A DNA stretch of 64,000 nt, from the NCBI GenBank assembly GCA_965277805.1, contig OZ255842.1:2720001-2784000 (forward strand), read 5' to 3'. The notes beneath the pieces were generated by a model. It made no database searches. It was given only the letters and a program-made list of their open reading frames with translations, and was not told the origin of the DNA. Both the position numbers and the translations under genes were made by a program. Numbering within the stretch: position 1 is the stretch's first letter; every line of letters starts with the position of its first letter. Source of the stretch: Candidatus Lustribacter sp. Its GTDB lineage: Bacteria > Vulcanimicrobiota > Vulcanimicrobiia > Vulcanimicrobiales > Vulcanimicrobiaceae. Positions 47,986 to 55,579 of the stretch are shown here, piece by piece.

Positions 47986-48647
47986 GCAACTTCGAAACGC
48001 TGGTCTTCGATCTCGACGGCACGCTGACCGATCCGTACGACGGCATCACGCGGTCGTATCAATACGCGCGGGAGAAGCTCGGCCTCAATCTGCTACCCGA
48101 CAGCGACTTGCGCGGCATGATAGGTCCTCCGATGCAGGAGGTTTTCTCCGCACTCAGCGACGGCAATGCGGAGCTCGTCGCCCACGCGATCATCGCCTAC
48201 CGCGAACGCTACTCGACGATCGGCCTGTTCGAGAACGTCGTGTACCCCGGAATCCCGGCAGCCCTCGCGACGCTCGCGGAATCGTACCGCCTCTTCGTGT
48301 GCACATCGAAGCCGGGCACATTTGCAACCCGAATTCTCGAGCACTTCGATCTTTCAAAACACTTTGCCGGAATTTACGGCTGCGAATTGGACGGCACCCG
48401 CGCCGATAAGCGCGAGCTGCTCCAATGGCTCCTCGAACAGGAAGGCGTAGACGGTTCCGGCGCCGCCATGATCGGCGATCGCATGTTCGACGTCGCAGCC
48501 GCGCTCGCGAACGGCCTCACACCGTACGGCGTCCTCTGGGGACATGGGAGCGAAACCGAACTGCGTGCGGCCCGTGCGAAGTCGTGCTTCCGTGCTGCGG
48601 AAGACCTATGCGCGGAATTCCCGCCCCCGGCGCGGACGCGTCCCTGA
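47982..48647 (+). CDS. HAD family hydrolase (phosphoglycolate phosphatase/5'-nucleotidase-like), probable CTG start
   Basis: LVFDLDGTLTDP lies upstream of the listed start; IGPP, TSKP, MIGDR..D, GVLWG. Confidence 0.85.
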   Translation: MSNFETLVFDLDGTLTDPYDGITRSYQYAREKLGLNLLPDSDLRGMIGPPMQEVFSALSDGNAELVAHAIIAYRERYSTIGLFENVVYPGIPAALATLAESYRLFVCTSKPGTFATRILEHFDLSKHFAGIYGCELDGTRADKRELLQWLLEQEGVDGSGAAMIGDRMFDVAAALANGLTPYGVLWGHGSETELRAARAKSCFRAAEDLCAEFPPPARTRP

Positions 48648-50039
48648 CTCCTGGGTGGGCATGTGCTGCACGGCCGGCGCTTCCGGCTTCGGCAGCGTGT
48701 TCACCGTATCGATGATATCGGCTAACCGCTGTGCGGTCTCGGGCATCGCCGGAACGTCGTAACGCGGCGCTTCACCGAAGCCGAACGCGGTCGTCAAATC
48801 GCCGCAGGTCTTGCGCCGCCACGCCGTGATGTTGGGGACCTCGACGCCGAAGCGCTTTTCGAGGAGCTGCAGCACCGACGTGTGATCGAACGTATCACCG
48901 CACACATAGCCGCCGCGTGAGAACGGCGAGACGATGAGCGCCGGCACGCGATAGCCGAGCCCGATCGGCTTTCCCCCGACGAACTCATCCGGCGTCCCGG
49001 GGTCGGGCAACGGCGGAATCACGTGATCGAAGAGCCCGTCGTTCTCGTCGTACACTTGGATAAACGCGGTCTTCGCCCAGACTTTCGGACTCGACCAGAG
49101 CGCATCGAGAATCGTATGGACCCAATTCTCGCCTTGCGCCGCAAAGAAGTCCGGATGTTCGGTCTGTTCCGCGTGCGCCATGACAAACGTGACCTGCGGC
49201 AGATTCCCGGTTCGGATGTTTTGCAAAAACTGCTGGAACGGATGCCCGCGACGCGCGCGCTGAAACAAGCGCGTGTTGGAATTCGCGGCTTGAAACGGCG
49301 GAAAGAAGCGCAGCACGTTCATGAGATAGTCGTCGTACATATCGTAGTAGAGCTGCCACGAGATACCGGCCTTCTCGAGCCGCTCGGGGTAGGTTTCCCA
49401 CGTATACGTCGTACGCCCGAGAATCGCATCATTGTTGAGCGCCGGCCCACCGTGCTTGCCGCCCGGATCGATCGACGCCGTCATCCAGTACAGCCGGTTC
49501 GGATACGTCGACGAGAGCATCGAGCAATGGTACCCGTCGCAAATCGTGAACGCATCCGCCAGCGCATAGTAGAACGGAATGTCCGCGCGCGTGTAGTAGC
49601 CCATCGTCAGCGGCCCCGACACGCCGTCGGCAACGCGATGCGCGGCCACCCAGCCGTCCATCTTGCCGCCGTTGAGACACTCGTGCTGCGGATCCCAATT
49701 ATGATTGAGATCGTGCAGCTGCATCGCGCTCGTTTTCGCCGTATCGAGATGGAACGGCAGCACGTAGCCGTCGGCATGCACCGGATCGGGCTGCTGAAAA
49801 ACCGGCGCGCCGCTGGGTAATTTCGCCGCATGCGCATCGTCGAACCCGCGCACCCCGCGCAACGACCCGAAGTAATGATCGAACGAGCGGTTCTCTTGCA
49901 TCAAGATGATGAAGTGATCGATGTCGTTGAGCTTCGAAGGTCCGGCGGCCTCAGCCGGACCAACCAAACCGGCGCCGATCGCAAGCGCCGCAGCGCTCGC
50001 TCCGCCTGCTAGAAAGACTTCGCGCGAGATGCGATTCAT
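48606..50039 (-). CDS. Phosphoesterase family phospholipase C/acid phosphatase (PlcN/AcpA-like)
   Basis: IDHFIILMQENRSFDHYFG, AFTICDGYH, TYPNR, EHP, YDENDGLFDHV, GLGYRVP, FDHTS. Confidence 0.93.
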   Translation of the reverse strand: MNRISREVFLAGGASAAALAIGAGLVGPAEAAGPSKLNDIDHFIILMQENRSFDHYFGSLRGVRGFDDAHAAKLPSGAPVFQQPDPVHADGYVLPFHLDTAKTSAMQLHDLNHNWDPQHECLNGGKMDGWVAAHRVADGVSGPLTMGYYTRADIPFYYALADAFTICDGYHCSMLSSTYPNRLYWMTASIDPGGKHGGPALNNDAILGRTTYTWETYPERLEKAGISWQLYYDMYDDYLMNVLRFFPPFQAANSNTRLFQRARRGHPFQQFLQNIRTGNLPQVTFVMAHAEQTEHPDFFAAQGENWVHTILDALWSSPKVWAKTAFIQVYDENDGLFDHVIPPLPDPGTPDEFVGGKPIGLGYRVPALIVSPFSRGGYVCGDTFDHTSVLQLLEKRFGVEVPNITAWRRKTCGDLTTAFGFGEAPRYDVPAMPETAQRLADIIDTVNTLPKPEAPAVQHMPTQESGTRPRRGREFRA

Positions 50040-50051
50040 ACGCGCGCCGTT

Positions 50052-50981
50052 TCAGACCTCGAGACAGATCTCCCGCCAAGCGTCGCGCTGCACGGAATCA
50101 TCAACGTCGACACGCACCCAGCCGCCGTCGGCTAGACATTCCGCTTCGATCGACGGTCCGTCGCCGTTTGCCCCCGACAAATGCACCACCCACGTCGGCC
50201 CGATGCGATTGCTCACGTGCAGGCGCCCAAAGCGCGAACGCAATTCCAGGTAATCCGCCGTTACCGACGTCGCTTGAAGTGTCGGTGCCCAACACACGCT
50301 GCCGCCGCGATTCTCGAGCCGCACGCGAACGCGAATCCCCGCCGCCGTCGCCGCCTCCAACACACGCCCCACCGCATCCGTCGCAACCGCCGTAGCAACG
50401 TAGGGCCCGGCGAGCACGAACGCATCACTGCGCGGCACCGCATGCTGCGCAATCAGCCGGTCAAAATCTTCGCGCCGCTCGAGCAGCGGCAACACCTGGC
50501 GCAACCGGTCCGCATACCGCCGCCACGGCGCCCGCAGCGCATGCGCGTAACTCTTCGGCAGCCCATCGTCGGCAAGCAGCCAAATCAATTCATCAAACTC
50601 CGCGCTCACGTCCTCCAGCCGCACCGCCGCGATCGGCGCGCCATGCGTCGAGAAAAACTCGAGCAATCGCGCGCCACCCTCACGCCGCGCGACGACGCTC
50701 ATCCACCCGCCGAAATCGAGCCGCACGGTCGTCCGATCCCCCGACCCGCAGCGCGACCGGCACAGCCGCTGCCGCCCCTCAACGCATTCAAGCGCCGCCG
50801 CCCCATGTCCGAACAACCAGGTCGCCCGCCGGGCATACCGCGTCATCGAAAGCACGGCCGGCCAATCCGCCCGCAACCGCACGGCCTCGTCCCCGCCGGA
50901 AGCGCCCGAATCGAGCACCGGCAACTGCAGCCGAGAGGGCGCCGCCGCCGGCGCCGAGATGGGAGTCCGAAAAGCAAACAT
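50052..50981 (-). CDS. Divergent HemS/ChuS-like (tandem ChuX/HutX domain) protein
   Basis: VRLDFGGW..RLLEFFSTHGAPI..VRL and VLEAATAAGI..ENRGG..LHV..WVV..G..PSIE recall the two HemS halves; start 50981 or 50993. Confidence 0.55.
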   Translation of the reverse strand: MFAFRTPISAPAAAPSRLQLPVLDSGASGGDEAVRLRADWPAVLSMTRYARRATWLFGHGAAALECVEGRQRLCRSRCGSGDRTTVRLDFGGWMSVVARREGGARLLEFFSTHGAPIAAVRLEDVSAEFDELIWLLADDGLPKSYAHALRAPWRRYADRLRQVLPLLERREDFDRLIAQHAVPRSDAFVLAGPYVATAVATDAVGRVLEAATAAGIRVRVRLENRGGSVCWAPTLQATSVTADYLELRSRFGRLHVSNRIGPTWVVHLSGANGDGPSIEAECLADGGWVRVDVDDSVQRDAWREICLEV

Positions 50982-50995
50982 AGGGCCTTTCACGC

Positions 50996-51057: not shown

Positions 51058-52290
51058 CTACAGCGAAACCGCCCCCGCATACCCCGTAAGCTCAACGTAA
51101 CCAACCCCAAGCCCACGCCCACTGACGCCGTCGCGCGCATCGACCGCTCCCTCCCAATACGAAACCCCACCCACGGTATTCGCCAACTCCTGATCGAGCA
51201 GCACCGGCGTCAACACAACATCAACATGCGCCGACGGAACGCTCACGCGCCACCCACTCGGATAGACCCCGCCCGTATGAGGCGACGTCCAAGACCCACT
51301 CGCCACCGCCGAGAACGCCCCACGCGCCAAATACGTAACGCGTCCCCGGGCATCAATCAAACTCCCACTCGACTCCGCAACAAGCGACCCATCCTTGCGC
51401 CGCAACACATACAACATAACCTCACGCCGATCATCAAGCTGAATCGAATACCAATCCCACCCGACAACCCCATCCTGCAATTCATCCGACCCAAACTCAT
51501 GATCCATCCAAGAAATCCCATCCACGCCAAACCGAGCCCCGCCATATATCATCGATCCCGAAGTCCACAACCGCGTCATCGAATAATAGTGCGAAGCACA
51601 ATTCGCACAAGGCCCCTTCTTCGAAATCCCATCATGCCCATGAACCGCCGGCGCCTTTTCCGAGACGAGAGCAAAATCAATCGCCTTCCCATCCACCGCC
51701 GCGTGCAAGCGAAACGGCGAAGGCCCCGTCAACGACCACCCATCAGCCCGCACATCAAGCCGCGTCTGCGAAGCACTCCCCGCCCCCAACGCCTCCCGCG
51801 CAAACCGCTCGTAATGCACGAATGTCTTCCCCGCCTCATCCGTAAGAGCAAAGTGCGCCGGAAACAACTCATTCCCACGCCAAGCACTACCCCCACGAGC
51901 CGCCTTCACGTCCCCCGGCCTCAATCCAACACGAAAAAACGTCAACTCATACCCAAACCGCCGCCCATCCTTAGCGCGAACATGCCCAGTAAAATACCAC
52001 CATTCTGACGCGAATTGATCGTGCGCAGCATGATCTCGCGGAAATCGAAAACGCCACGGTAACCCAGCACTGAGGAAGTGGCCATTCGCACCCTGAGCAC
52101 CATCATGCCGGATGGGTGGCGCGGCGGCGTTCGTCGCGCGGGGTGCTCTGAGGGCTTGCGAAGCCAAGATGGCGAGAGCAAGCCCGAAGGCAGCGACAGC
52201 GCGCACAGGAAGTGCGCGCCGAGCGTGCCCCGCGCGACGAACGCCGCCGCGCCACCCATCCACCACCACCCACGCAAGCCGGCGCGTCAT
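51058..52290 (-). CDS. AttH/CrtC-like lipocalin-domain protein
   Basis: FRFPRDHAAH..EWWYFTG, ASHYYS, SWMDHEF, GWDWYSIQLDD, YWEGAV, GYVELTGY; ATGA overlap with the permease. Confidence 0.9.
   Translation of the reverse strand: MTRRLAWVVVDGWRGGVRRAGHARRALPVRAVAAFGLALAILASQALRAPRATNAAAPPIRHDGAQGANGHFLSAGLPWRFRFPRDHAAHDQFASEWWYFTGHVRAKDGRRFGYELTFFRVGLRPGDVKAARGGSAWRGNELFPAHFALTDEAGKTFVHYERFAREALGAGSASQTRLDVRADGWSLTGPSPFRLHAAVDGKAIDFALVSEKAPAVHGHDGISKKGPCANCASHYYSMTRLWTSGSMIYGGARFGVDGISWMDHEFGSDELQDGVVGWDWYSIQLDDRREVMLYVLRRKDGSLVAESSGSLIDARGRVTYLARGAFSAVASGSWTSPHTGGVYPSGWRVSVPSAHVDVVLTPVLLDQELANTVGGVSYWEGAVDARDGVSGRGLGVGYVELTGYAGAVSL
52110..52261. repeat. Perfect 34-bp inverted repeat with an 84-bp spacer inside the AttH-like gene
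   Basis: 52110-52143 GGATGGGTGGCGCGGCGGCGTTCGTCGCGCGGGG is the exact reverse complement of 52228-52261. Confidence 0.93.
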
Positions 52291-54863
52291 TCCGCCCGCA
52301 CAGCCTCACTAGTGCGTATCCGAGCAGCCACCCCCGCCGGATAAATCCCAGCCGCCAACGCAGCAATCACCACCAGCACAACCGCCTCCGCCAAAAAGTC
52401 ATACGGCATGTGCAACTCAATGAGCCACCCAAAAGCCTGCCGATTGATGACGAAGATGAGCAACAGCGCGAGCAGCACGCCGACGACGACCCCGCTGATC
52501 CCCCCAAGCAGCCCGATAAACGCCGCCTCAAAGTAAACCATCCGCCGCACATCCCGCGTACGCAACCCAAGATAACGAAGCAGCCCGATCTCACGCCGCC
52601 GCTCCAACACCAGCGCAAACAGCGTAGAAACCACGCCCAGCACCGCAATCGTAATCGAGATAACGTACAATGCATACGTAATAGCAAACGTACGATCGAA
52701 AATCGTGATGACGAGCGCGCGAAGTTCCCGCGTCGTTTGCGTATCCACCCGCAACGGCAAAACGCTCCGCTCGATGGAATTCCGAAGCGCTACCAAGTCG
52801 GTACCGGGCCGAGCATAAACCGCCAACGAGGTAAGCGACGGATCCCGATACAGCCGCCGAAACGTCGCCAGGTCCATCAACACCACGCCGGCGTCGGACG
52901 AGTAATCGTTGTACACCGCAGCAACGGAGAACGTGGTCATCCCCGACGGCGTATCGAGCGTAAACCGGTCCCCCGTGTTCAGCGAGAACTTCGTCGCAAA
53001 CGGCTCGCTGATGAGCACGTTCTCCGACCCCGGCAACCCGCGCTGCAGCGTATCCTCGTCGACGCGCCCGATAAAGCGAACCGTACGCCGCGAAGCAAAG
53101 TCCGCCAGATTCGTCCCCGCGAGCCCCGTGATACGCCCGCGAAACGGAATGCTGATCTCGCGAATCACGTCGATGGACGCCACCCCGGGCAAGCGCGAGA
53201 TCGTCCGTGCCACGTCGGAAGAAAACGTCGCATCCGAGGAGGCGTCTCCCAATCCCAGCGGCCGCACAAAAAGATCCGCCTTGAGCGTATCGTTGGCCCA
53301 CGCCACCACCGTCGTGCGAAACGATCCGATGAGAATCGCCACCGCAACGGTCATCGCGATCGCGATCATCAAGGAGGCAACAGCAACGCTATTGCGCACG
53401 GGCGACGAGCCTAAGTTCGCCGCCGCAATTTCCCCCGCCGCCGAACGCGAAACGAGCACCGCACGCGCCAGGCGCGCCAGTCCTGCAATGAGCAGCGGCG
53501 CAAACAGCGACCCCGCGAAGATGATGAGCAGCCCCGCCGCGTAACCGAAGAGCGGCACATCGCCGATCGGCGGCAGCAACGTGCACGCCCAGCCGACGAG
53601 CAACAGCCCAAGCCCGAAGATCGCCGCCCGCGGCGCAAGCCCGGTGAGCCGCCGCTCGTAGCCTTGCGCGCGCATCGTGATCGCCGGCGGCGTCCGCGCA
53701 GCCTCCAGCGCCGGTACGAGCGCCGCGATCGCCGCCGCCGCCACGCCGATCAAGAACGCCTTGAGCAACACGACTGGATCGTACACGACATGATCCGCGT
53801 GCGAGGCAACGTAGAGCGTATCGACGGTCCGCGAAACCGCCGCGACCGAAAACGTTGCCAGCACGCTCCCGATCACCACGCCGAACAGCGAGCCCACCAC
53901 CCCGAACAGCACGCCCTCGGCCAGAAACGTGCGCAAGATCTGCCCGCGCTTCACCCCGAGGGCGCGGAGCGTTCCGATCTCCGGCCGCCGCTGCACGACC
54001 GAAATCGCGACGGTGTTGTAGATCAGATACATGCCGACGAGCAACGCGATGTACGAGAGCGCGGCCAGATTGAGTTCGAACGAACGCAGCATGCGCTGGA
54101 TCTCGCCCGTGCGGACCTTCGGTTCGATCGCGCGCACGCCGGGCGGAAGCACGCGCCGCACCGCCGCGATCGTCGTCGCCAATTGCGCCGGATCGACGAT
54201 GCAATCAATGCGGTCGAGCCGGCCGACTTTGCCGAAGATCTCCTGCGCCGTCGCGATGTCGACGAACACGACGCTCGAATCGACGCCCGCGACGCTCGCC
54301 GGCAAGACCGCCGCCACGCGCAGTTCGACGTTGCGGTCGCCCGCGAGCGCGGAGATGATCGAGCCAGCCTGCCAATGATACTTGGCGGCAACGCGCGCGC
54401 TGATAAACGCGCCGTGTCCGTTCACGAGCAACCACGGATCGGGCGCCGACGTTCCCGTCGCAACACCGCCGGGCGTCGCGAGAACACCGCTCGAACCCGG
54501 CACCGGCCGCAGCAGATCGATGCCCAGCACGCGCAAGATTTCGCCCGAGAACGCATCGCCGGCGCGCGCGCCGACGGTGAGCGAATCCTCGATCGCCGGA
54601 TTCGCATAGAGCACGCCCGGCACGTTCTGCACGCGCAAAATCGTGCGCTCGTCGAATCCACGTCCGACGCCCAGCACTTGCAAGTTGATGTGGTTGGAAA
54701 TTACGTTCACGCTCGATGCAAACGACGCGACCGCGGTGGTATTCGCCAGATCGACCGAGAGCGCGATCGCAACACCGAGCGCCACGGCCAGCACGGTAAC
54801 GGCGCTGCGCAGTTTGTTCGCCCCGATGTGCCCCCAAACGAGGGCCGCGAAGACCGGACTCAC
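52287..54863 (-). CDS. FtsX/MacB-type ABC permease (fused AttFG-like)
   Basis: Two MacB-PCD plus FtsX repeats; ALLVGMYLIYNT..VVQRRPEIGTLRALG, ERRREIGLLR, VINRQAFGW; GTGA overlap. Confidence 0.9.
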   Translation of the reverse strand: MSPVFAALVWGHIGANKLRSAVTVLAVALGVAIALSVDLANTTAVASFASSVNVISNHINLQVLGVGRGFDERTILRVQNVPGVLYANPAIEDSLTVGARAGDAFSGEILRVLGIDLLRPVPGSSGVLATPGGVATGTSAPDPWLLVNGHGAFISARVAAKYHWQAGSIISALAGDRNVELRVAAVLPASVAGVDSSVVFVDIATAQEIFGKVGRLDRIDCIVDPAQLATTIAAVRRVLPPGVRAIEPKVRTGEIQRMLRSFELNLAALSYIALLVGMYLIYNTVAISVVQRRPEIGTLRALGVKRGQILRTFLAEGVLFGVVGSLFGVVIGSVLATFSVAAVSRTVDTLYVASHADHVVYDPVVLLKAFLIGVAAAAIAALVPALEAARTPPAITMRAQGYERRLTGLAPRAAIFGLGLLLVGWACTLLPPIGDVPLFGYAAGLLIIFAGSLFAPLLIAGLARLARAVLVSRSAAGEIAAANLGSSPVRNSVAVASLMIAIAMTVAVAILIGSFRTTVVAWANDTLKADLFVRPLGLGDASSDATFSSDVARTISRLPGVASIDVIREISIPFRGRITGLAGTNLADFASRRTVRFIGRVDEDTLQRGLPGSENVLISEPFATKFSLNTGDRFTLDTPSGMTTFSVAAVYNDYSSDAGVVLMDLATFRRLYRDPSLTSLAVYARPGTDLVALRNSIERSVLPLRVDTQTTRELRALVITIFDRTFAITYALYVISITIAVLGVVSTLFALVLERRREIGLLRYLGLRTRDVRRMVYFEAAFIGLLGGISGVVVGVLLALLLIFVINRQAFGWLIELHMPYDFLAEAVVLVVIAALAAGIYPAGVAARIRTSEAVRAE

Positions 54864-55579
54864 GGCACGATGCGGCCGTCGTGCATGCGGATCGTGCGAT
54901 CGCACACCGCTGCCGCTTCGGCGCTATGGGTCGCCATGAGAATGGCCTGGCCGCCGTCGGCAAGCGAACGCAACAGCCGTAAGACGTTTTCGCCGTTGTG
55001 CGAATCGAGATTGCCGGTCGGCTCGTCGGCGAGCAAAACGGCCGGTTGGTGGATCATCGCCCGCGCGATCGCCGCGCGTTGCAATTGGCCGCCGGACACT
55101 TGCGCCGGAAACGCGCGCGCCTTATCGCCGAGGCCGACGGCGGCCAACGCCGGTGCCGTACGCCGCGCGATCTCCGCCGCCGCGACGCCCTGCAGCACGA
55201 GCGGCAGCGCAATGTTCGCTTCAATCGTGAGTGCCGGCAATAAGTTGAAGAACTGAAATATCGTGCCGACGCGATCGCGCCGCAAGAGCGTCAGCGCGTC
55301 GTCGTCGAGCTCGGCAGTGTCGCGCCCGTCAACAAAAACATGGCCGGACGTCGGTAAATCGACGCATCCGACCAAGTTGAGAAGAGTGCTCTTACCGCAC
55401 CCGCTCGGGCCAACCAAGGCGACCATTTCGCCACGACTGACCTCGAGCGACACGCCGTCGAGCGCACGAACGGGTGCGTCGGCGGCGGGATACGTTTTCC
55501 GCGCGTCGGAAACGACGACCGGAAGATTCGCGATTATGCTTTGTAGTAGGCCGCGTTGGCGTCGATGAACGACTTCCAC
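54860..55579 (-). CDS. ABC transporter ATP-binding protein (LolD/AttE-like); start uncertain
   Basis: [39 protein letters not shown]. Confidence 0.92.
   Translation of the reverse strand: MEVVHRRQRGLLQSIIANLPVVVSDARKTYPAADAPVRALDGVSLEVSRGEMVALVGPSGCGKSTLLNLVGCVDLPTSGHVFVDGRDTAELDDDALTLLRRDRVGTIFQFFNLLPALTIEANIALPLVLQGVAAAEIARRTAPALAAVGLGDKARAFPAQVSGGQLQRAAIARAMIHQPAVLLADEPTGNLDSHNGENVLRLLRSLADGGQAILMATHSAEAAAVCDRTIRMHDGRIVP

What the first reader, a model, noticed from the sequence alone, without database searches (positions are those of the whole stretch)
52110..52261. Candidate intragenic inversion switch that swaps a signal peptide for a hydrophilic peptide
Seen: near the 5' end of the AttH-like gene, a perfect 34-bp inverted repeat (52110-52143 / 52228-52261) flanks exactly 84 bp (28 codons), with junctions on codon boundaries. 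The current orientation encodes HARRALPVRAVAAFGLALAILASQALRA, the only export-signal-like hydrophobic core in the protein. The flipped orientation encodes CSEGLRSQDGESKPEGSDSAHRKCAPSV, which has no stop and is hydrophilic. The arms read as extra peptides DGWRGGVRRAG and PRATNAAAPPI. Inference: inversion would keep the ORF intact but toggle the protein between exported and cytoplasmic forms, giving phase variation of localisation for the partner of the adjacent ABC exporter. Alternative: two REP-like elements inserted in frame, which would also form a long mRNA stem. No recombinase gene is visible in the window.
Basis: partly seen in the sequence, partly recalled or inferred. Interest (0 to 1): 0.9.

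Follow-up and report, generated by a model that had tools for sequence, protein, structure and literature searches.

The report
Palindromic repeat domesticated as signal peptide
The inverted repeat is real, but it is one copy of a roughly 150-base palindromic repeat family scattered through the genomes of an uncultured bacterial phylum; this copy landed in frame at the start of an exported-protein gene and now appears to supply its export signal, and nothing shows that it flips.

Summary
A perfect 34-bp inverted repeat flanks 84 bp in the 5' end of a CrtC/AttH-like gene on the minus strand, in frame, and the core encodes the protein's only hydrophobic segment.

The inversion-switch reading is not supported. 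The 152-bp unit belongs to a dispersed family: a long closing stem, two inner hairpins with conserved loops, and stems that covary. The family's loop motif occurs in 62 of 151 sampled genomes of the same bacterial family, up to 25 times per genome. In the one genome surveyed copy by copy (G011) all 25 copies lie outside the filtered reading frames, usually just 3' of a co-oriented gene. Named records carrying the motif are mostly Vulcanimicrobiota/Eremiobacterota MAGs. No Rfam family matches.

The copy here is in the same position, frame and orientation in 17 of 17 assemblies. Orthologs without it carry an ordinary short signal peptide. A second lineage has an antisense in-frame copy and keeps its native signal peptide.

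The arms differ strongly between orthologous copies yet stay complementary, with no excess of G·U pairs. That points to DNA-level correction of the palindrome.

Flipped reads could not be tested because only k-mer contigs were available. The closest analogue is the in-frame Rickettsia palindromic elements. This is a new variant of a known kind, of moderate interest.

The parts
52228..52261 (-). 5' arm of the palindrome on the gene strand. It is translated as (V)DGWRGGVRRAG and adds arginines to the signal peptide's n-region.
   Evidence: Arm sequence changes in concert with the other arm among orthologs.
52144..52227 (-). 84-nt core of the element, 28 codons, translated as HARRALPVRAVAAFGLALAILASQALRA.
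   Evidence: The core is 82-83% identical over 96-97 nt in distant orthologous copies whose arms are different.
52197..52221 (-). Inner hairpin 1: stem CGGCGCGCAC/GUGCGCGCUG with loop UUCCU.
   Evidence: Fold. Covariation of this helix in 39 family copies: 7 of 11 pairs change on both sides.
52152..52185 (-). Inner hairpin 2: stem GGGCUUGC/GCAAGCCC, an internal loop, and a GCCA/UGGC tip. It carries the family's most conserved motif, CTCTCGCCATCTTGGCTTCG, and encodes LALAILAS.
   Evidence: The motif is found in 62 of 151 family genomes.
52110..52143 (-). 3' arm of the palindrome on the gene strand, translated as PRATNAAAPPI(R).
52162..52200 (-). Codons for residues 31-43, AVAAFGLALAILA. This is the most hydrophobic 13-mer of the protein and the inferred h-region of the signal peptide.
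   Evidence: hydropathy 2.56, top of all windows. Orthologs without the element have their own h-region instead.
51058..52290 (-). CrtC/AttH-like gene, 410 aa, carrying the element in frame at codons 10-61.
52287..54905 (-). FtsX-type ABC permease gene, 872 aa. Its TGA overlaps the ATG of the AttH-like gene, and the element starts 29 nt after that ATG.
54860..55579 (-). ABC transporter ATPase gene, the first gene of the three-gene row.
   Evidence: PF00005, E = 3.1e-32.

Best explanation
The 34-bp arms and the 84-bp core are one copy of a previously uncatalogued family of roughly 150-nt palindromic repeats. The named MAG records that carry the family's motif are mostly Vulcanimicrobiota/Eremiobacterota.

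A family member has three parts: a long closing stem of about 25-40 bp whose sequence differs from copy to copy, and two inner hairpins with conserved tips (CATCCATG-like, and TCTCGCCATCCTGGCTYC). In the genome surveyed copy by copy, copies sit outside reading frames, typically 20-250 nt downstream of a gene in the same orientation.

Here a copy inserted about 29 nt past the stop codon of the FtsX permease gene. Because the next gene starts at an ATGA overlap, that site lies inside the signal-peptide coding region of the AttH-like gene.

The insertion is in frame and in the orientation whose core happens to encode a hydrophobic helix. The gene is translated from the overlapping start through the element, and the core now serves as the h-region of the export signal. 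This last step is inferred.

The arms are kept complementary by a DNA-level process, such as hairpin-templated correction or quasipalindrome template switching. This step is also inferred. The same structure must also form a very stable stem in the mRNA between the two cistrons. Its effect on expression is unknown.
For: 1. Family membership.
- Related copies with unrelated flanks occur in the same genus. Of 7 other genomes, 6 have the element, and G001 has at least 8 matches, several at contig ends.
- Copies also occur in other genera.
- The 20-nt loop motif, with up to 1 mismatch, occurs in 62 of 151 sampled family genomes, with up to 25 matches (G011). The reversed-pattern control gives 0-1.
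- Exact-motif hits in named records are mostly Vulcanimicrobiota/Eremiobacterota MAGs.
- G000 itself has a second family copy near C1:4272510-4272665 with a different stem.

2. Structure. On 39 copies, 92.4% of cells pair, against 69.5% in shuffles and 38.7-46.9% when partners are slid. Of 65 pairs, 53 show changes on both sides.

3. Usual location. Of the 25 G011 copies, 0 lie inside GC3-filtered ORFs. The upstream neighbour within 300 nt is co-oriented in 17, opposite in 4 and absent in 4.

4. Translation through the element.
- In G000, G002, G004, G006 and G007 the distance from the overlapping ATG/GTG to the element is 30, 45, 27, 18 and 18 nt, always a multiple of 3.
- No in-frame start codon lies between the element and the conserved FPRDH motif in G000.
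- Two copies (L269, L250) lack the internal GTG.

5. Signal-peptide role.
- Orthologs without the element have an ordinary short signal peptide directly before the conserved APY.F.FPRDH motif. Examples are G005, G008, G011, G017 and G020.
- Orthologs with the element have no other hydrophobic segment.
- The antisense in-frame copies in G021 and L296 encode a hydrophilic stretch, and those genes keep a native signal peptide.

6. Age and concerted arms.
- The insertion is at the same place in 17 assemblies whose proteins are 61-100% identical to this one.
- Arms have 0-4 mismatches of 34, although the arm sequences of L246, L250 and L269 differ widely from G000.
- In the outer stem there are 1192 Watson-Crick, 11 G·U, 46 A·C and 34 other cells. 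G·U is therefore not favoured as it would be under RNA-only selection.
Against: - No signal-peptide predictor was available. The n-region would be unusually long at about 30 aa, no Tat-signal or other NCBIfam model hits the N-terminus, and the obvious ALRA|P site has proline at +1, which by recalled knowledge blocks signal peptidase I. The segment could therefore be an uncleaved anchor or be cleaved elsewhere.
- The peptide conservation cannot be separated from DNA-level conservation of the core, because intergenic copies 'encode' nearly the same peptide.
- The mobilising enzyme is unknown. No target-site duplication is evident, and Y1 transposases are not found in the high-copy genomes. 'Mobile element' is thus inferred from dispersal alone.
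- In-frame genic copies are rare for this family: 0 of 25 in G011, and at most 2 of 51 elsewhere, unchecked. Yet the AttH gene has been hit in two lineages. I explain this by the family's preference for sites just past a stop codon, but that is an inference.
- The A·C excess is largely one inherited mismatch, so the G·U argument is weak.
Confidence: 0.78

Rival explanations
1. Intragenic inverton. Recombination between the 34-bp arms flips the 84-bp core. This switches the protein between a form with a signal peptide and a hydrophilic, non-exported form.
For: - Perfect arms, an in-frame core and an open flipped frame.
- Recoding intragenic invertons exist in Bacteroides, one of them only 57 bp long (passages of 10.1101/2023.03.11.532203).
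- The arms evolve in concert in situ. Arm-to-arm recombination could produce that.
- The genome holds 1 serine and 5 tyrosine recombinase matches.
Against: - 17 of 17 assemblies with this insertion have the sense orientation.
- 0 of 24 G011 copies are flipped relative to their asymmetric flanks.
- The arms are a generic feature of a dispersed repeat and differ in sequence between copies, so no common recombinase site exists.
- No recombinase gene is near the locus.
- A stop-free flipped frame is expected 64% of the time.
- Assemblies show only the majority orientation, so rare flipping is not excluded.
Confidence: 0.05
2. The palindrome is kept because the RNA structure has a cis-regulatory job in the operon. 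A 34-bp perfect duplex starting 29 nt after the start codon would either be cut by RNase III or throttle the ribosomes that re-initiate after the permease gene. Either way it would set the permease:AttH ratio. This can hold together with the best explanation.
For: - Extreme predicted stability, -153.8 kcal/mol with z = -9.24.
- The stem is maintained at this site across orthologs down to 61% protein identity.
- Family copies are biased to the sense orientation behind genes, 17 against 4. That hints at a transcript-level effect.
- By recalled knowledge, Correia and REP elements are RNase III or mRNA-stability sites in other bacteria.
Against: - No RNA run holds the locus, so nothing was tested.
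- G·U pairs are not enriched over A·C in the outer stem.
- The arms change faster than the core. This fits DNA-level correction better than purifying selection on an RNA helix.
Confidence: 0.2
3. Assembly artefact or chance inverted repeat.
For: Perfect palindromes can arise from fold-back chimeric long reads. The genome is a single-contig MAG with 5.9% contamination.
Against: - The same structure is in 16 other independent assemblies at the same site.
- Short-read contigs of 4 runs reproduce both arms and the core without differences.
- 0 of 100 shuffles give any match to the 34-mer.
Confidence: 0.01

Closest known systems
Rickettsia palindromic elements (RPE)
   Same: RPEs are palindromic repeats of about 150 bp in many copies that insert in frame into protein-coding genes, are translated, and leave the host protein functional (passage of the MITE review PMC10969869). 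Here a 152-bp palindromic repeat is in frame, conserved and translated in an otherwise ordinary gene.
   Different: - RPEs are often genic: nearly half of the 44 R. conorii copies counted in that passage, those of three of the ten RPE families, lie in ORFs. This family is almost always outside genes (0 of 25 in G011).
- No sequence relation was seen, and the phylum is different.
- The inserted peptide appears to take over a defined function, the signal-peptide core, rather than forming a surface loop.
- The stems covary strongly while the loops are conserved.
REP / REPIN elements with RAYT transposases; ERIC and Correia-type bacterial MITEs
   Same: These are short structured palindromic repeats, dispersed mostly between genes and often just behind genes. 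They form hairpins in ssDNA or RNA, and compensatory changes keep the hairpin.
   Different: - Y1 (RAYT/IS200) transposase genes were found in only 7 of 151 family genomes, and in none of G000, G001, G002, G007, G011 or G023.
- The terminal stem sequence is not conserved between copies, unlike transposase-bound TIRs.
- No target duplication was seen.
- The unit is a three-helix structure, not a simple hairpin.
Intragenic invertons (Chanin et al., preprint 10.1101/2023.03.11.532203)
   Same: Inverted repeats inside a gene flank a short segment whose inversion would recode the protein.
   Different: Invertons are defined by both orientations being observed. Here only one orientation is seen in every assembly, and the repeats are explained by membership of a palindromic repeat family.
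Quasipalindrome-associated template-switch mutation (E. coli; start of the abstract of PMC7202029 seen in the listing)
   Same: This is a replication mechanism that copies one arm of an imperfect inverted repeat from the other and so perfects palindromes. It would give the concerted arm changes seen here.
   Different: It is known as a mutational hotspot mechanism in laboratory reporters. That it maintains this element is an inference and was not tested.

Membership tests
Intragenic inverton | Inverted repeats flank the segment inside one ORF | tested here: met
Intragenic inverton | Both orientations are observed in reads or assemblies | tested here: not met
   17 of 17 assemblies are in the sense orientation. 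Raw reads were not available, and the contigs break in the arms, so rare flipping remains untested.
Intragenic inverton | A cognate invertase is present | tested here: inconclusive
   One Resolvase-domain match at 4.88 Mb and five Phage_integrase matches were found, none near 2.77 Mb.
REP/REPIN-RAYT system | A RAYT (Y1 transposase) gene is present in genomes that carry the repeats | tested here: not met
   PF01797 was found in 7 of 151 genomes. It was not found in G000 or in the high-copy genomes G011 and G023.
REP/REPIN-RAYT system | A conserved GTAG/CGTC-type 5' tetranucleotide on each REP (recalled feature) | not tested
   Not examined.
MITE | Terminal inverted repeats of conserved sequence shared with a parent IS | tested here: inconclusive
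   The arms always pair, but their sequence varies between copies. A parent IS was not searched for.
MITE | Target-site duplication | tested here: not met
   The flanks of 24 G011 copies show conserved asymmetric flanks (gccc / tNcc) and no direct repeat.
RPE-like in-frame palindromic element | A palindromic repeat of about 100-150 bp in many copies | tested here: met
RPE-like in-frame palindromic element | Inserted in frame in an ORF that stays open and conserved | tested here: met
RPE-like in-frame palindromic element | Frequent genic insertion across many genes | tested here: not met
   0 of 25 copies in G011. At most 2 of 51 folded copies in other genomes, unchecked.
Any Rfam RNA family | Match reaching a family's gathering score | tested here: not met
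   Only sub-threshold plant and animal miRNA-hairpin matches were found for this copy and for six other copies.
Sec/Tat signal peptide | A charged n-region, a hydrophobic h-region and a cleavage site recognised by a predictor | not testable with these tools
   The h-region and an arginine-rich n-region are seen. No SignalP tool was available, and no Tat-signal model hit in NCBIfam at E up to 10.

The most novel reading that the evidence does not exclude
The arm-to-arm exchanges that keep the 34-bp arms identical inside this gene sometimes resolve as a crossover. This flips the 84-bp core in a minority of cells and produces an AttH-like protein without an export signal. The result would be a recombinase-independent, low-frequency switch of protein localisation built from a domesticated repeat.
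Probability: 0.05. Interest if true: 0.8.

Novelty: new variant of a known kind. Interest (0 to 1): 0.45.

Why it matters
The finding has three consequences.

- It adds an uncatalogued, strongly covarying structured repeat family to a phylum known almost only from metagenomes. Such repeats break assemblies (several copies sit at contig ends) and can be mistaken for invertons, RNA genes or miRNA-like hairpins.
- It gives a clean natural example of a selfish palindromic repeat being co-opted as a functional protein part. Sense insertions replaced the signal peptide's hydrophobic core, whereas antisense insertions in a sister lineage left the native signal in place.
- It is a caution for inverton screens based on inverted-repeat detection. 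A perfect, in-frame, stop-free inverted repeat can be fully explained by a repeat family.

Tried and rejected
- Read-level test of inversion. The look-up of sequencing runs listed 4 holders from one sample and one study, all kept as Logan contigs, and no RNA holder. When laid on the locus, the contigs stop inside the arms (pieces 51700-52139, 52114-52257, 52228-52261 and 52232-52700), so orientation cannot be read and rare variants are dropped. This gives no evidence either way.
- Exact 34-mer as a dispersed repeat in this genome. Only the two arms match. blastn of the 152-mer finds no second close copy. The second family copy was found only through the loop motif.
- Rfam. Nothing real for this copy or for six others.
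- Earlier findings of this scan. Nothing was returned.
- TnpB/omega-RNA idea. Roughly 350-aa ORFs upstream of G011 copies looked like a repeated gene, but they are unrelated housekeeping genes truncated by my 1.2-kb flanks. Rejected.
- RAYT association. Rejected.
- Tat or other signal models in NCBIfam. No hit.
- RNA-strand selection from G·U versus A·C counts. Uninformative, because most A·C cells are one inherited mismatch.
- L251 as a decayed remnant. Only the 20-nt motif with up to 2 mismatches matches, with no significant alignment of the core. Left as uncertain.
- Literature. One search for Eremiobacterota with palindromic or repetitive listed no paper containing the phylum name. I therefore found no description of this repeat, but one search does not show that none exists.

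Full report
**1. The observation**

The window holds a perfect 34-bp inverted repeat, 52110-52143 and 52228-52261, with 84 bp between the arms. With up to 3 mismatches these are the only two matches in the window, against 0 expected in 100 shuffles. They are also the only two in the whole 5.53-Mb single-contig genome.

The gene concerned lies on the minus strand at 51058-52290 and encodes 410 aa. It carries the Pfam domains CrtC N-terminal lipocalin (E = 4e-49) and Lipocalin_9 (E = 8.6e-39), which is the AttH-like architecture. It is the last gene of a row: ABC ATPase (54860-55579), FtsX permease (52287-54905), then the AttH-like gene. Its ATG overlaps the permease TGA as ATGA.

On the gene strand the element reads arm, core, arm as DGWRGGVRRAG, then HARRALPVRAVAAFGLALAILASQALRA, then PRATNAAAPPI. 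The eight most hydrophobic 13-residue windows of the protein all start at residues 27-35, so they span residues 27-47. The flipped core is hydrophilic and stop-free. However, 64% of random 84-nt frames in this genome are stop-free too. As RNA, the region folds at -153.8 kcal/mol with z = -9.24.

**2. It is a member of a repeat family**

A search of relatives with the protein and with the 152-mer showed two things.

First, the element is present at the same site, orientation and frame in the orthologs of G002, G003, G004, G006 and G007. These are genomes of the same genus, and the element is 90-97% identical there.

Second, closely related copies with unrelated flanks occur elsewhere in that genus. 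G001 has at least 8 matches, several cut by contig ends, and G002 and G007 have one extra copy each. G005 has none.

Other genera of the same family hold more distant copies. These share the inner part but have entirely different outer stems that still pair. The common plan is as follows:
- A closing stem of about 25-40 bp.
- Hairpin 1, with a variable stem and a CATCCATG-like tip.
- Hairpin 2, with a variable 8-bp stem, an internal loop and a GCCA/TGGC tip. It carries the nearly invariant string CTCYCGCCATCCTGGCTYCG.

On 39 copies (alignment A2), with a structure taken from their own folds, 92.4% of cells form standard pairs. The figure is 69.5% in column shuffles and 38.7-46.9% when partners are slid by 1-3 columns. 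Of 65 pairs, 53 have changes on both sides. The structure was derived from these same sequences, which favours it somewhat.

The 20-nt loop motif, with up to 1 mismatch, occurs in 62 of 151 sampled genomes of the family. It occurs up to 25 times in G011, 12 in G023 and 11 in G155, while the reversed control pattern gives 0-1. These counts include the unpublished genomes G073, G121, G141 and G162.

Exact matches in named public genomes are mostly MAGs labelled Vulcanimicrobiota or Eremiobacter(ae)ota, including Ca. Cybelea, Velthaea, Elarobacter, Aquilonibacter and Lustribacter. A few are contigs labelled as other phyla, which I did not follow up.

G000 has one more family copy, near C1:4272510-4272665, outside the filtered reading frames. 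It has a different stem and a compensated tip, GGCA/TGCC. No Rfam family matches this copy or six others.

**3. Where family copies usually sit**

I looked at all 25 copies in the complete genome G011. Real genes were called by a crude third-position G+C filter. None of the 25 copies lies inside an ORF. The nearest upstream gene within 300 nt is in the same orientation as the element's core in 17, opposite in 4 and absent in 4. In 11, the downstream neighbour is convergent. The usual site is therefore just behind a co-oriented gene.

The upstream ORFs are unrelated housekeeping genes, not a transposase or TnpB. Y1 (RAYT/IS200) transposases were found in only 7 of 151 genomes, one of them the unpublished G073, and not in G000, G001, G002, G007, G011 or G023.

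The copies carry conserved asymmetric flanks, gccc on the left and tNcc on the right. Relative to the core these are the same way round in 21 of 24 full copies, flipped in 0 and different in 3. No target duplication is visible.

**4. The copy in the AttH-like gene is translated and looks domesticated**

Orthologs without the element have an ordinary short signal peptide right after the overlapping start and directly before the conserved APY.F.FPRDH motif. Those examined include G005, G008, G011, G017, G020, five genomes of a second family and G034, and also the unpublished G015 and G036. Orthologs with the element have 5-15 residues before it and no hydrophobic stretch after it.

The distance from the overlapping ATG/GTG to the element is 30, 27, 18, 45 and 18 nt in G000, G004, G007, G002 and G006 respectively, always a multiple of three. 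G003 was left out of this count because its assembly shows several frame breaks in this gene. There is no in-frame start codon between the element and FPRDH in G000. The internal GTG is missing in L269 and L250. Translation therefore runs from the overlapping start through the whole element.

A scan of public metagenome contigs with the protein gave 79 loci. Eleven more carry the element in the same place, frame and orientation: L239-L244, L246, L247, L250, L269 and L289. Their protein identity to this one runs from 87% down to 61%. Some of them are clearly the same species as the genomes above.

With the six genomes, that makes 17 assemblies, all in the sense orientation.

A different lineage, G021 and L296, has a family copy in the opposite orientation. 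It is in frame, lies after a native signal peptide that is retained, and encodes a hydrophilic Ala/Gly-rich stretch. Each ortholog thus has exactly one N-terminal hydrophobic segment, either native or element-encoded. This is the main argument that the core acts as the signal peptide's h-region.

No predictor was available. No Tat or other model hits the N-terminus, and the n-region would be unusually long.

**5. The arms**

Within the 17 orthologous copies the arms have 0-4 mismatches of 34. The counts are 0 in G000, G006, G007, L241, L242 and L244; 1 in G003, G004, L239 and L289; 2 in G002, L243 and L269; 3 in L240; and 4 in L246, L247 and L250.

Yet the arm sequences differ. G004 has 3 positions changed on both arms and G006 has 2. 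L246, L250 and L269 have largely different arms, while the cores of L246 and L250 remain 82-83% identical to G000 over 96-97 nt. The arms thus change in concert, and faster than the core.

In the outer stem of the 39-copy alignment there are 1192 Watson-Crick cells, 11 G·U, 46 A·C and 34 others. G·U is not favoured, although most A·C cells trace to one inherited mismatch, so this is weak.

I read this as a DNA-level correction of one arm from the other. The mechanism would be hairpin-templated repair or quasipalindrome template switching, which is known from E. coli (start of the abstract of PMC7202029 seen; the rest is recalled). Selection on an RNA helix alone fits less well. This is inference.

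**6. The inversion hypothesis**

Recoding intragenic invertons are real, and one is only 57 bp long (passages of 10.1101/2023.03.11.532203). The idea was therefore reasonable. Several results count against it here:
- All 17 assemblies have one orientation.
- 0 of 24 G011 copies are flipped relative to their flanks.
- The inverted repeat is a generic family feature whose sequence varies from copy to copy.
- No recombinase gene is nearby. The genome has one Resolvase-domain match at 4.88 Mb and five Phage_integrase matches, none near 2.77 Mb.

The direct test failed for technical reasons. The only runs are k-mer contigs from one sample, which break inside the arms. Low-frequency flipping, for instance as a by-product of arm-to-arm exchange, remains possible. 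I put it at about 5%.

**7. Comparison and verdict**

The closest known case is the Rickettsia palindromic elements. These are palindromic repeats of about 150 bp that are translated in frame inside genes (passage of PMC10969869). This family differs in four ways: it is almost always extragenic, it comes from another phylum, it has conserved loops with covarying stems, and in this copy it takes over a defined role.

It also resembles REP/REPIN and ERIC/Correia-type repeats in location and hairpin form. It fails the RAYT test, however, and shows no conserved terminal repeats or target duplication.

One literature search for such repeats in Eremiobacterota listed no paper containing the phylum name.

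The best explanation is a palindromic repeat inserted in frame and co-opted as a signal peptide. That is a new variant of a known kind, of moderate interest.

Noticed in passing
G000:C1:~4272510-4272665 (outside the window; locus L233:1208-1368): This is a second copy of the repeat family in the same genome. It lies outside the filtered reading frames and has a completely different outer stem. The hairpin-2 tip is changed from GCCA/TGGC to GGCA/TGCC, a compensated pair.
   Followed up: partly
L009:2563-2730 (G021) and L296:~1419-1570: In another lineage the AttH-like ortholog carries a family copy in the opposite orientation. The copy is in frame and lies after a native signal peptide that is retained. 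This is a second, independent in-frame hit on the same gene.
   Followed up: yes
G011 loci L213-L232 and L234-L238: Family copies sit 19-250 nt behind a co-oriented gene in 17 of 25 cases, against 4 opposite, and often between convergent genes. They carry conserved asymmetric flanks (gccc...tNcc, then CTGCGTTCC-like). The unit is therefore somewhat longer than the palindrome and has a polarity.
   Followed up: partly
L007, L240-L243, L269 (hairpin-2 tip): In these orthologous copies the four-pair tip GCCA/TGGC reads GTCA/TGAC. This is a compensated change that alters the peptide from LALAILAS to LALVILTS.
   Followed up: no
L022/L026 (G003:C12:173475-174704): The AttH-like ortholog of G003 shows several in-frame TGA stops and frame changes. 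It is either an assembly with indel errors or a pseudogene. I left it out of the frame count.
   Followed up: no
L251:~679-830: A 60%-identical ortholog starts with MKIVRLALFLAILAP, and its DNA matches the 20-nt loop motif with up to 2 mismatches. It has no palindrome and no significant alignment to the core. It may be a decayed remnant of the element that still serves as the signal peptide. The evidence is weak.
   Followed up: partly
loci such as L089, L101, L104, L112, L119, L154, L166: Exact 20-nt motif matches also occur on contigs labelled Planctomycetota, Krumholzibacteriia, Limnocylindria, Binatia, Pirellulales, Janthinobacterium and Pseudohongiella. These could be chance, mis-binning or real spread beyond the phylum. 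I did not examine them.
   Followed up: no
L091:2172-2322 and L143:4122-4272: Two of 51 well-folding copies from other genomes lie inside long GC3-rich open frames. They might be further genic insertions or merely 5' leaders.
   Followed up: no
window 50052-50993 (-) and 48606-50039 (-): Downstream of the AttH-like gene lie a 313-aa ORF with no Pfam match and a 477-aa Phosphoesterase-family (phospholipase C-like) gene.
   Followed up: no
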